64,000 nucleotides of DNA from a virus, in IMG/VR virus record IMGVR_UViG_3300007513_000015, positions 35,127-99,126 of that record; one strand, written 5' to 3'. A model generated the notes under the pieces. That model was not told where the DNA came from. It saw only the letters and a program-made list of their open reading frames with translations, and made no database searches. Position 1 is the first letter of the stretch. Each line of letters opens with the position of its first letter. Positions 45,291 to 46,561 of this stretch are shown here, one piece after another. Made by a program: the position numbers and the translations under genes.

Positions 45291-45295
45291 AATAC

Positions 45296-45349
45296 TTGAC
45301 ATTCATATAAGTATAGTGTATAATACTTGAAAAATTGTACATATAAATA
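45296..45349 (+). promoter_or_regulatory. Sigma70 promoter (TTGACA-17-TATAAT) plus late promoter, both facing a non-coding region
   Basis: 45296-45324 and TATAAATA 45342-45349; no ORF downstream for ~590 bp. Confidence 0.8.
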
Positions 45350-45355
45350 AATCTG

Positions 45356-45594
45356 CCTGGGATACGAAAACCAGGATAGTAGCGAAAGCGAAGTGAGCAG
45401 ACTATAATATCTTAAACGCAATTAGATTGAGGTCTGTGGATTGATGCACCGTACAAGTGCTAGATATCTGAAATAATCGTGTCAGGACTTTCACCACATA
45501 ATGGTATCATATAGTCCAGTAGAGATGGTTGAATTGACAACCAGTGGCAAACAGGATCCCGTAACCTGTCTCTATAAGTCTACCTGTATCTAAT
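45356..45594 (+). ncRNA. Putative structured non-coding RNA
   Basis: Nested complementary segments (CCTGG/CCAGG, ATAGT/ACTAT, GCAC/GTGC, CTGA/TCAG, GGACT/AGTCC, TGGTTG/CAACCA, ACAGG/CCTGT, TAGAG/CTCTA, ATTAGAT/ATCTAAT) behind two promoters. Confidence 0.5.
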
Positions 45595-45687
45595 GAATTC
45601 GAAAATATATAATATGAAAAACAAATAAACTGGAGCGAACGAAGTGAGCGACACTGGTCGAACGAAGTGAGACCAGAGTTAGAGAAC

Positions 45688-45772
45688 TGTCCTAAAACTA
45701 TAGGATTGATGTAATAATTTATCCTTACATTGTCCTAAAACTATAGGATTGATGTAATAATTTATCCTTACA
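45688..45772. repeat. Two identical 42-bp iteron-like repeats with internal palindromes
   Basis: TGTCCTAAAACTATAGGATTGATGTAATAATTTATCCTTACA at 45688-45729 and 45731-45772. Confidence 0.92.
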
Positions 45773-45879
45773 CTTTCTATAGGATCATTACACATTAGGA
45801 CACAACCCTAAGAACCAATCTCGCTTCGCTCGATTGGTCCTCCTTCGCTTCGCTCAGTCGGTTTTCTTTGATTTTAGTA

Positions 45880-45908
45880 TTGACTTTTTCTATATTTTAT
45901 GATATAAT
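45880..45908 (+). promoter_or_regulatory. Sigma70-type promoter for gp55
   Basis: TTGACT-17-TATAAT with extended TG. Confidence 0.75.
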
Positions 45909-45943: not shown

Positions 45944-46561
45944 GTGACTAAAAAGACTGAAAAACCAGTTGATGAAGATAACAAGAACCATTACATTAAT
46001 AACAAAGAGTTTCTTGCGGCTCTTATTGAATACCAAAAGGACATTAGGGAGGCAGAAGAACAGAACCTTCCTAAACCTTATGTTACTGAGTACATTGCTA
46101 CGTGTTTTCTACAGATAGCACAAAGACTTTCCTATCGACCTAATTTTATTAACTACACTTATAAGGATGATATGATTTCTGACGGATTAGAGAATTGCCT
46201 TGCGTATATGCATAACTTTAATCCCGACAAGTCGGATAATCCTTTTGCGTATTTCACACAAATCATTTACTACGCCTTCCTAAGACGAATCCAGAAAGAG
46301 AAAAAACAACAGTACATCAAGTACAAATACTTTGATGAAGGTGGTGGTTTTGAACAAATGGATGAACTTCAAGAACACGATAAGGATTCTTTTGACTACA
46401 TTAATGACCGGGGTTCAGTGGATTTTCATACACACATTAAAGAATTTATTGATGATATGGAGAAGAAAGAAGCCGAAAAGATTGCTAAACGAGAAGCAAA
46501 GAGAGCGGAGAAAGAAAAACGCGGTTCTTCCCTTGACTTTTTTATGACTCCTGTCGTATGA
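45944..46561 (+). CDS. gp55: Late sigma factor gp55
   Basis: HYINNKEFL, RPNFINYTYKDDMISDG, NPFAYFTQIIYYAFLRRIQKEKKQ; GTG start after GGAGA. Confidence 0.95.
   Translation: MTKKTEKPVDEDNKNHYINNKEFLAALIEYQKDIREAEEQNLPKPYVTEYIATCFLQIAQRLSYRPNFINYTYKDDMISDGLENCLAYMHNFNPDKSDNPFAYFTQIIYYAFLRRIQKEKKQQYIKYKYFDEGGGFEQMDELQEHDKDSFDYINDRGSVDFHTHIKEFIDDMEKKEAEKIAKREAKRAEKEKRGSSLDFFMTPVV

What the first reader, a model, noticed from the sequence alone, without database searches (positions are those of the whole stretch)
45631..45862. Candidate bidirectional origin: palindromic iterons flanked by oppositely oriented GAA mini-hairpins
Seen: on the left, GAACGAAGTGA occurs twice on + (45637-45647, and 45660-45670 inside the stem CTGGTC/GACCAG). 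On the right, GAGCGAAGCGA occurs twice on - (45821-45831 inside ACCAATC/GATTGGT, and ~45845-45855). A related GCGAAGTGA lies at ~45388. Between them are two 42-bp repeats, each holding TCCTA-N6-TAGGA and TGTAA-N10-TTACA palindromes, plus a partial third copy; an AT-rich stretch precedes them. Established: d(GCGAAGC) is an unusually stable ssDNA mini-hairpin reported at some phage origins and promoters. Inference: the strand-symmetric layout indicates priming or helicase-loading signals around initiator-binding repeats.
Basis: partly seen in the sequence, partly recalled or inferred. Interest (0 to 1): 0.75.

Follow-up and report, generated by a model that had tools for sequence, protein, structure and literature searches.

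The report
Mirror-image mini-hairpin phage origin candidate
Just upstream of the late-sigma-factor gene of an uncultured marine T4-like phage lies a conserved element of very stable three-base-loop DNA hairpins, on one strand at its left end and on the other strand at its right end, around a repeat-filled core; it is most likely a replication start site of a kind not described for T4-type phages, but no experiment shows this.

Summary
The four 11-nt motifs are caps of hairpins of the form GA-N-C-GNA-G-N'-GA. N and N' covary (A:T 34, G:C 31, C:G 4, G:T 2, unpaired 1 in 72 distinct units), and the flanking stems change by compensation.

The layout is kept upstream of gp55 in most of about 60 distinct relatives. 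It runs: orphan consensus promoter, structured ~220-nt RNA, AT-rich stretch, left arm (caps on +), lineage-specific core, right arm (caps on -), gp55 promoter.

The same mirror-image module occurs about three times per genome in cultured T4-like phages (EC-W2, JC221, POP12, Cr30). It sits in or near the gene neighbourhoods where T4 has oriF, oriG, oriE and oriA. T4 itself, KVP40, P-SSM2 and pelagiphage Mosig lack it. One arm stands upstream of RNase H in SSU5-like phage-plasmids. An enteric-type copy lies next to a Rep-like gene in an E. coli island and in two plasmids.

My best reading (about 0.5) is a transcription-activated origin with strand-specific ssDNA hairpin signals. It works like RSF1010 ssiA/ssiB combined with T4 R-loop origins. 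The core repeats are not conserved iterons. GC skew and duplex-melting rank give no real support.

This scan has noted the element before on other DNA. I found no published description.

The parts
45296..45324 (+). Orphan sigma-70 consensus promoter (TTGACA-17-TATAAT, 12/12) firing rightward into the non-coding RNA and the element
   Evidence: the same arrangement is in L058
45353..45572 (+). Conserved structured non-coding RNA (~220 nt), no Rfam family; carries an invariant G-Y-GAAGTGAG-CA segment
   Evidence: 18 of 39 predicted pairs keep pairing through changes on both sides across 11 relatives; no Rfam match
45590..45630 (.). AT-rich stretch (17% G+C), a candidate unwinding region between the RNA and the left arm
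   Evidence: sequence; within the easiest 0.4% of 30-40-bp windows of the contig, but 27-48 other places melt more easily
45635..45649 (+). Left arm, outer mini-hairpin: 2-bp stem plus an 11-nt cap (cap at 45637-45647)
45654..45676 (+). Left arm, inner hairpin: 6-bp stem plus an 11-nt cap (cap at 45660-45670)
45677..45813 (.). Lineage-specific core: two 43-bp tandem repeats (45688-45773), each with two small palindromes, plus a partly inverted third piece
   Evidence: The core is not shared with relatives
45814..45838 (-). Right arm, inner hairpin: 7-bp stem plus an 11-nt cap read on the - strand (45821-45831)
45843..45857 (-). Right arm, outer mini-hairpin: 2-bp stem plus a cap on the - strand (45845-45855)
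45880..45908 (+). Outward sigma-70 promoter of gp55 (TTGACT-17-TATAAT with TG, 11/12), directly beside the right arm
45944..46561 (+). gp55, the late sigma factor (GTG start after GGAG); downstream neighbour
   Evidence: phrog_234, E 6e-62

Best explanation
The element is a replication origin, or origin-type initiation site, of a T4-like phage. It is activated by transcription and marked by strand-specific single-stranded-DNA hairpins.

What is shown:
- A perfect host-type promoter with no gene fires through a structured RNA and an AT-rich stretch into two hairpins whose stable form lies on the non-template (+) strand.
- A mirror-image pair lies on the - strand, next to the outward gp55 promoter.
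- The hairpin caps follow the DNA mini-hairpin rule: C-GNA-G closed by a covarying pair and a tandem G.A.

What is inferred:
- Transcription and negative supercoiling open the AT-rich DNA, or form an R-loop as at T4 oriF.
- The displaced strand folds into the very stable caps. These hold the bubble open and resist coating by single-strand-binding protein.
- The caps then offer a fixed entry point for the helicase loader or primase.
- A primer laid on the cap-bearing strand would grow away from the core. The two arms would therefore start two diverging leading strands, as ssiA and ssiB do in RSF1010.
- The variable core would be an unwinding or cruciform segment, or a site for a lineage-specific factor. 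It is not a set of universal iterons.
For: 1. The structure is selected. In 72 distinct units, pair 10:16 is A:T 34, G:C 31, C:G 4, G:T 2, other 1. The covariation score is 0.62, against 0.21 in shuffles (0 of 500 reach it) and at most 0.16 when partners are slid.
2. The triloop is G-N-A with all four bases seen at N, which is the DNA mini-hairpin rule (review PMC13037366).
3. Strand geometry is kept. In 42 distinct regions upstream of gp55, C-GNA-G hairpins occur 1.29 times per region on + (median -258) and 1.67 times on - (median -134). Background is 0.16 and 0.13. In 28 of 33 regions that have both, all + copies lie left of all - copies. The same geometry holds at every two-armed module in EC-W2, JC221, Cr30 and POP12. 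POP12 also has two one-armed half-modules.
4. Position. Modules lie in the gap upstream of uvsY, which is the T4 oriF gap. They also lie in the rnh/gp55 gap (T4 oriG is 2.2 kb from rnh), in the gene 3/2 gap, and between gene 5.4 and gene 6 (T4 oriE is 1.4-2.5 kb away). One lies upstream of the primase gene (T4 oriA is 1.2 kb from gene 61).
5. Outward promoters flank the EC-W2 modules, including an orphan promoter antisense to gp24. T4 oriE and oriG primers are likewise antisense transcripts (annotations).
6. A whole enteric-type module lies about 190 bp downstream of a YagK/YfjJ 'inovirus Gp2-type' Rep-like gene. This is seen in an E. coli island, in a Citrobacter plasmid and in a 10.8-kb circular plasmid.
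7. One arm stands upstream of RNase HI in SSU5-like phage-plasmids.
8. There are precedents for this hairpin type at initiation sites: G4 ori(c), RSF1010 ssiA, and N4 promoters.
9. Only one copy occurs in the 99-kb contig.
Against: - No replication, R-loop or binding data exist for any copy.
- GC skew of the contig follows gene orientation only and does not turn here.
- The AT-rich parts melt easily but are not the easiest in the contig.
- Nearest-neighbour DNA folding of the arms is not better than shuffles (z -0.6 to -1.1). That model does not score mini-hairpin caps.
- T4's own origins lack the motif, so the positional match could simply reflect a shared preference for boundaries between gene modules.
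- The cap motif is not origin-specific. Arrays of it fill intergenic DNA of many bacteria and archaea.
- Half-modules exist. L004 keeps only the left arm, and POP12 and SSU5 have single arms.
- In POP12 an orphan promoter fires into an arm whose caps lie on the template strand. That does not fit the simple R-loop picture.
Confidence: 0.5

Rival explanations
1. It is a REP/BIME-like structural or selfish palindromic element. Generic ultra-stable hairpin units have settled at gene-module boundaries of the phage. There they act as recombination hot spots, topoisomerase or nucleoid-protein sites, or RNA/DNA end protectors, without starting replication.
For: - The same cap, often in tandem arrays of hairpin units, is abundant in genomes of many bacterial and archaeal phyla. 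Of 345 units, 18.5% have 4 or more flanking pairs, against 0.4% by chance.
- E. coli BIME-1 elements also pair inverted palindromic units around an AT-rich protein site (my own knowledge).
- POP12 and EC-W2 differ by a rearrangement whose breakpoints fall exactly at two modules.
Against: - Copy number is 1 per 99 kb or more here and about 3 per genome in cultured phages, not tens.
- The position and the strand geometry are fixed across relatives whose gp55 is only 65% identical, and stems are maintained by compensation.
- Cellular arrays show both geometries.
- Orphan promoters belong to the module.
Confidence: 0.2
2. It is a transcription-control region for gp55 (and for uvsY and rnh in other phages). 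The palindromic core would be an operator for a phage or host regulator. The arms would be supercoiling-sensitive cruciforms that insulate or tune the adjoining early promoters.
For: - The right arm abuts the -35 box of the gp55 promoter here and in relatives.
- EC-W2 modules sit between divergent 11/12 promoters.
- The core holds dyad-symmetric sites such as TCCTA-N6-TAGGA.
Against: - Double-stranded binding sites do not need covariation within one strand, nor G.A-capped tips on one particular strand.
- The same module serves unrelated genes, and it also serves an orphan promoter with no gene.
- It appears beside a Rep-like gene on plasmids.
- The cores are not conserved, so no common regulator site exists.
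Confidence: 0.15
3. It acts at the RNA level. The left arm would be the 3' domain of the upstream non-coding RNA, and left and right arms would pair in one long transcript as a processing or attenuation signal before gp55.
For: - No terminator-like site separates the RNA from the arms.
- The 550-nt RNA fold pairs the two arms (z -4.1).
- The RNA carries the same GAAGTGAG octamer as the caps.
- L004 keeps the RNA plus the left arm only.
Against: - The stems of the two arms differ and cannot pair with each other, while each hairpin is kept locally.
- On the + transcript the right-arm caps become pyrimidine mismatches.
- Enteric modules lie upstream of outward promoters and are not transcribed by them.
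- GNA triloops are a DNA feature, not a typical RNA one.
Confidence: 0.08

Closest known systems
ssiA/ssiB single-strand initiation signals in oriV of the IncQ plasmid RSF1010
   Same: Both have two hairpin signals on opposite strands in inverted orientation beside repeats and AT-rich DNA. The hairpin tip is a C-GAA-G mini-hairpin. In RSF1010 the signals start two leading strands (PMC8567376 and PMC13037366).
   Different: No RepB'-type primase, RepC initiator or conserved iterons are known here. There are two hairpins per arm, and the arms flank the core instead of lying side by side. The cap carries tandem G.A pairs. Sequence relatedness to ssiA was not tested.
Phage T4 origins oriF(uvsY), oriG(34), oriE and oriA (Kreuzer and Brister 2010, PMC3016281)
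   Same: Both have a promoter whose transcript has no coding role or runs antisense, followed by easily melted DNA. Both have several copies per genome. Modules of cultured relatives lie in the oriF gap and within 1-2.5 kb of the genes that flank oriG, oriE and oriA. uvsW and uvsY are neighbours here.
   Different: T4 origins share no motif and lack these hairpins. T4 uses MotA-dependent middle promoters, whereas this element has a host consensus promoter.
Hairpin promoters of the phage N4 virion RNA polymerase
   Same: Both have a 5-7-bp stem with a GGA or GAA three-base loop that is extruded from supercoiled DNA and read on one strand.
   Different: No N4-type polymerase was seen in the window. 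The large ORFs match structural families, and T4-like phages are not known to carry one. The element is not at a genome end.
Complementary-strand origin of phage G4 (primase-dependent)
   Same: Both have a mini-hairpin sequence in a hairpin that stays free of SSB and marks a priming site.
   Different: G4 is a single-stranded phage with one site on one strand. This element is a mirrored pair in a double-stranded genome.
REP/BIME elements of enterobacteria
   Same: Both are extragenic palindromic units, sometimes in inverted pairs around an AT-rich protein site. The cap motif also forms REP-like arrays in many cellular genomes.
   Different: REP/BIME elements have tens to hundreds of copies and a partner transposase. 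This element has one to three copies, fixed positions and a fixed strand geometry.
PeSL promoter-stem-loop cassettes of T4-type phages (PMC2839356, PMC4122927)
   Same: Both place a stem-loop directly upstream of a strong early promoter, and both are linked to genome rearrangements.
   Different: PeSLs are numerous, lie in hyperplastic regions, and have simple G/C stems that act as terminators. Here no terminator-like site is found, the caps are conserved, and the arms are mirrored.

Membership tests
RSF1010-type ssi signals | Two hairpin signals on opposite strands, in inverted orientation, within an origin region | tested here: met
   Caps lie on + at the left and on - at the right. Whether the region is an origin is not shown.
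RSF1010-type ssi signals | Recognition by a dedicated RepB'-type primase encoded by the replicon | not tested
   No search for RepB' was made. T4-like phages use a gp61-type primase (my own knowledge).
RSF1010-type ssi signals | Adjacent iterons bound by an initiator (RepC) | tested here: not met
   The core repeats differ in every lineage and are absent in L004. No initiator gene was identified.
T4 R-loop origins (oriF/oriG) | A promoter whose transcript primes replication, with an unwinding element downstream | tested here: inconclusive
   An orphan 12/12 promoter and a 17% G+C stretch are present. The melting rank is only in the top 0.4-0.8%. R-loop formation cannot be tested here.
T4 R-loop origins (oriF/oriG) | MotA-dependent middle promoter | tested here: not met
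   The promoter is the host sigma-70 consensus and has no MotA box.
T4 R-loop origins (oriF/oriG) | Genomic position at uvsY or beside rnh | tested here: met
   Modules of EC-W2, JC221, POP12 and L133 lie in those gaps. The window copy lies one small gene after uvsW.
N4 hairpin promoters | Short stem with a three-purine loop on the template strand | tested here: met
   GNA triloops closed by C-G.
N4 hairpin promoters | Presence of the N4-type virion RNA polymerase | tested here: not met
   The large ORFs tested (1802 and 1196 aa; the 2511-aa ORF was not tested) match structural or unknown phage families only. The contig is about 54% complete.
REP/BIME | Many dispersed copies per genome | tested here: not met
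   One module in 99 kb, and three per cultured phage genome.
PeSL cassettes | A terminator stem-loop plus an early promoter, numerous in hyperplastic regions | tested here: not met
   No terminator-like sites. The element is a single copy between core genes.
Rfam RNA families | Match to a curated covariance model | tested here: not met
   No match at E<=1 in the window gap. The other four loci gave only two sub-threshold chance matches outside the element.

The most novel reading that the evidence does not exclude
One ancient origin design is shared by much of the T4-like phage world (marine, freshwater, enteric and Caulobacter phages), by SSU5-type phage-plasmids, and by small Rep-bearing plasmids and islands. 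In this design, ultra-stable strand-specific DNA mini-hairpins next to promoters define where two diverging leading strands begin. T4 itself would have replaced this design with MotA-promoter origins at the same places.
Probability: 0.35. Interest if true: 0.85.

Novelty: new variant of a known kind. Interest (0 to 1): 0.7.

Why it matters
Replication origins are mapped in T4 only. They share no motif, and nothing is known about origins in the huge marine and environmental T4-like groups.

A sequence-recognisable, covariation-supported module would make origin use in these phages directly testable. It marks the T4 origin neighbourhoods in relatives, reappears next to a Rep-like gene on plasmids and islands, and follows the rules of DNA mini-hairpins.

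It would also give a natural, widespread role to d(C-GNA-G) mini-hairpins. Finally, it could explain how satellite-like islands and phage-plasmids plug into phage replication.

Tried and rejected
- **Rfam** gave nothing for the gap or for four related loci beyond two sub-threshold chance matches outside the element.
- **blastn of the gap** against the phage records gave no match.
- **GC skew** follows gene orientation only.
- **DNA nearest-neighbour folding** of the arms and core gave weak z-scores. I do not use these either way, because the model ignores mini-hairpin bonuses.
- **Sequencing runs:** no RNA holder was listed. There were only 8 DNA runs from two marine studies, which may be the source of the contig.
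- **A conserved CTG (DnaG start triplet) 5' of the first hairpin:** seen in a few copies, but not general in the 72 units. Dropped.
- **A shared ATGTAAT-type site in the cores:** present in 8 of 12 representatives, but the DNA is AT-rich and I did not test it against shuffles. Enteric cores do keep a compensated ATGT....ACAT dyad around an AT tract.
- **PeSL cassette:** rejected.
- **N4-type polymerase:** not found.
- **The hypothetical gene beside module C of EC-W2 and JC221:** no Pfam hit and no likeness to the island Rep-like protein.
- **YagK/YfjJ family in the window's contig:** none.
- **Core repeat unit in IMG/VR:** no other holder.
- **Literature searches** for the motif strings found nothing relevant.

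Full report
**Context.** The window is part of a 99,126-bp viral contig with 37% G+C. Its gene order is major head protein, tail tube, UvsY, UvsW, a small conserved protein, a 617-bp gene-free gap (45291-45907), gp55, gp47, gp46. This is the core order of marine T4-like myoviruses. Known cyanophages and pelagiphages match at only about 70% at the DNA level, and they have 34-111 bp where this phage has 617 bp.

**The observation.** There are two small corrections. The repeats are 43 bp, and the third piece is partly an inverted copy. The octamer CGAAG[CT]GA occurs seven times on both strands of the contig, five of them within 470 bp here.

**What the motifs are.** Each 11-mer reads GA-N-C-GAA-G-N'-GA. 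The left copies have N:N' = A:T and the right copies have G:C. That difference preserves a base pair. I collected every unit of this form from the region upstream of gp55 in relatives and from cultured phages. This gave 72 distinct 25-nt units.
- The N:N' pair is A:T 34, G:C 31, C:G 4, G:T 2, unpaired 1.
- The first flanking pair is C:G 48, T:A 16, plus others.
- The overall covariation score is 0.62, against 0.21 in shuffles (0 of 500 reach it) and at most 0.16 with slid partners.
- The selection pattern fixed only the GA, C, G and GA letters, so this covariation is not built in.
- The loop is G-N-A, with A, T, G and C all seen at N.

This is the rule for the very stable DNA mini-hairpins d(GCGNAGC) (PMC13037366). 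The tandem G.A next to it would extend the stack (my own knowledge). Relatives that lack the full cap still carry plain C-GNA-G hairpins in the same places.

**Architecture and conservation.** Of the 58 closest of the 80 IMG/VR loci fetched with gp55, 49 have the motif within about 550 bp upstream of gp55. The common plan is as follows:
1. an orphan consensus promoter;
2. a structured RNA of about 220 nt, in which 18 of 39 pairs are kept through double changes;
3. an AT-rich spacer;
4. a left arm of two hairpins;
5. a 100-150-bp core that differs in every lineage;
6. a right arm of two hairpins;
7. the gp55 promoter.

In 42 distinct regions, C-GNA-G hairpins are 8- to 13-fold enriched. They lie on + at a median of -258 and on - at a median of -134 relative to gp55. 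In 28 of the 33 regions that have both, all + copies lie left of all - copies.

The stems of the two arms differ within one phage, here CTGGTC versus ACCAATC. What is conserved is therefore each local hairpin, not pairing between the arms.

**Beyond this clade.** The two-hairpin arm occurs once, nearly letter for letter, in SSU5-type phage-plasmids (71 IMG/VR contigs and 685 plasmid records). It lies upstream of the RNase HI gene, on the strand antisense to the genes.

It also occurs upstream of uvsY in another marine T4-like phage, L133.

A pattern scan of complete genomes found about three mirror-image modules per genome. In every two-armed copy the + caps are on the left and the - caps on the right, 90-220 bp apart.

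| Phage | Module positions |
|---|---|
| Enterobacter phage EC-W2 | gp24/uvsY gap, rnh/gp55 gap, gene 3/gene 2 gap |
| Yersinia phage JC221 | the same three gaps |
| Pectobacterium phage POP12 | upstream of uvsY, gp24/gene 3, rnh/gp55 |
| Caulobacter phage Cr30 | upstream of primase, near uvsW, between gene 5.4 and gene 6 |

The T4 record annotates four origins:
- oriF at the start of uvsY;
- oriG 2.2 kb from rnh;
- oriE in gene 5, which is 1.4 kb from gene 5.4 and 2.5 kb from gene 2;
- oriA 1.2 kb from gene 61.

So nearly every module position falls in or near a T4 origin neighbourhood. T4 itself, KVP40, P-SSM2 and pelagiphage Mosig lack the module.

This match is suggestive but not proof. 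Both kinds of site may simply prefer the boundaries between gene modules.

**Features that go with the module.** The three copies in one enteric phage share a polar core. It has an extremely AT-rich tract of about 33 bp flanked by a compensated ATGT....ACAT dyad. The window's core has ATGTAA-N10-TTACAT twice.

EC-W2 modules are flanked by outward 11/12 promoters. One of these is an orphan promoter antisense to gp24. The T4 oriE and oriG primers are likewise antisense transcripts.

**A lead from earlier notes, tested here.** An entire enteric-type module (80-99% identical) lies about 190 bp downstream of a YagK/YfjJ 'inovirus Gp2-type' Rep-like gene (PF11726, E 4e-9). This arrangement is found in three places:
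- an island inserted in malX of E. coli CX12;
- Citrobacter plasmid p6_C;
- the 10.8-kb circular plasmid pTR_1_35.

A Rep-like gene with this element beside it is the usual look of an initiator and its origin. It could also be a satellite that borrows a phage origin.

**Evidence that does not help, or that cuts the other way.**
- GC skew tracks gene orientation only.
- The AT-rich parts are in the easiest 0.4-0.8% of windows to melt, but 23-48 other places are easier.
- Standard DNA folding energies of the arms are unremarkable.
- The cap is not phage-specific. Pairs of it occur in at least 120 stretches of bacterial and archaeal genomes from many phyla. Often they form tandem arrays of hairpin units, and both strand geometries occur.
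- The cap is therefore a generic tip for single-strand hairpins. The phage-specific signal is the arrangement, not the motif.
- Half-modules exist (L004, POP12, SSU5).
- In one POP12 half-module, the promoter fires into caps that lie on the template strand.

**Reading.** Covariation within one strand rules out a plain double-stranded binding site. Three things argue for a DNA-level rather than an RNA-level element: the mirrored strand choice, the G-N-A loops, and the position of enteric arms upstream of outward promoters.

Among DNA-level roles, an origin with single-strand initiation signals fits the most facts (confidence 0.5). It works like RSF1010 ssiA/ssiB and T4 R-loop origins. It fails the membership tests for both families, because it has no RepB'/RepC-type parts, no MotA promoter and no shared sequence.

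The rivals are a REP/BIME-like structural or recombination element (0.2), a promoter-control region (0.15) and an RNA-level signal (0.08).

I found no published description. Earlier notes of this scan describe the same element on other genomes and reach similar readings. They are not independent evidence.

Noticed in passing
window 45296-45572: An orphan perfect sigma-70 promoter drives a conserved structured RNA of about 220 nt with no Rfam family. Across 11 relatives, 18 of 39 pairs are compensated. The RNA contains a loop-E-like AGUA/GAA hairpin and an invariant GAAGTGAG octamer identical to the 3' half of the hairpin caps.
   Followed up: partly
L186-L305 (genome contigs): The cap motif forms tandem arrays of hairpin units in intergenic DNA of very diverse bacteria and archaea, including Haloarchaea (often next to tRNA genes), Acidimicrobiia, Deltaproteobacteria, Bacteroidota, Saccharibacteria, Altarchaeum and Woesearchaeota. 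Many loci can occur per genome. I could not find a name for this repeat family. A few hits (Gordonia, Mycobacterium) look like coding repeats instead.
   Followed up: partly
L164 4100-4620 (Salmonella phage SSU5) and 685 plasmid records: SSU5-type phage-plasmids carry one two-hairpin arm, nearly identical to that of marine phage L058, in a 437-bp non-coding gap upstream of RNase HI. The annotated GTG start of SSU5_090 runs through the motif and is probably too long. Phage Cyrano annotates a shorter gene.
   Followed up: partly
L185 8090-9170; L306 3844-4930; L307 1935-3671: A YagK/YfjJ (inovirus Gp2-type) Rep-like gene is followed by a complete RB43-type module. This pairing is found in an E. 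coli CX12 island in malX, in Citrobacter plasmid p6_C and in the 10.8-kb plasmid pTR_1_35, each time with a serine recombinase nearby. It may be a small mobile replicon or a phage satellite.
   Followed up: partly
L166, L172 (EC-W2) versus L169, L180 (POP12): The gene order differs by an exchange whose breakpoints fall exactly at two modules. EC-W2 has gp24|uvsY and gene 3|gene 2, whereas POP12 has gp24|gene 3 and gene 2|uvsY. The modules are therefore also rearrangement points.
   Followed up: no
L004 2860-3000: The relative with the most similar gp55 (91%) keeps the RNA and the left arm but has no core and no right arm. The left arm runs straight into the gp55 promoter.
   Followed up: no
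L133 650-1100: Another marine T4-like phage has a promoter-like site and about 400 nt of structured non-coding sequence before its single arm upstream of uvsY. A ...TTAGAG-hairpin-TGG... segment resembles part of the window's RNA. Its uvsW is split into two ORFs.
   Followed up: no
L166 2647-2675 (EC-W2): An 11/12 sigma-70 promoter next to the uvsY-gap module points into gp24 in antisense and has no gene of its own.
   Followed up: no
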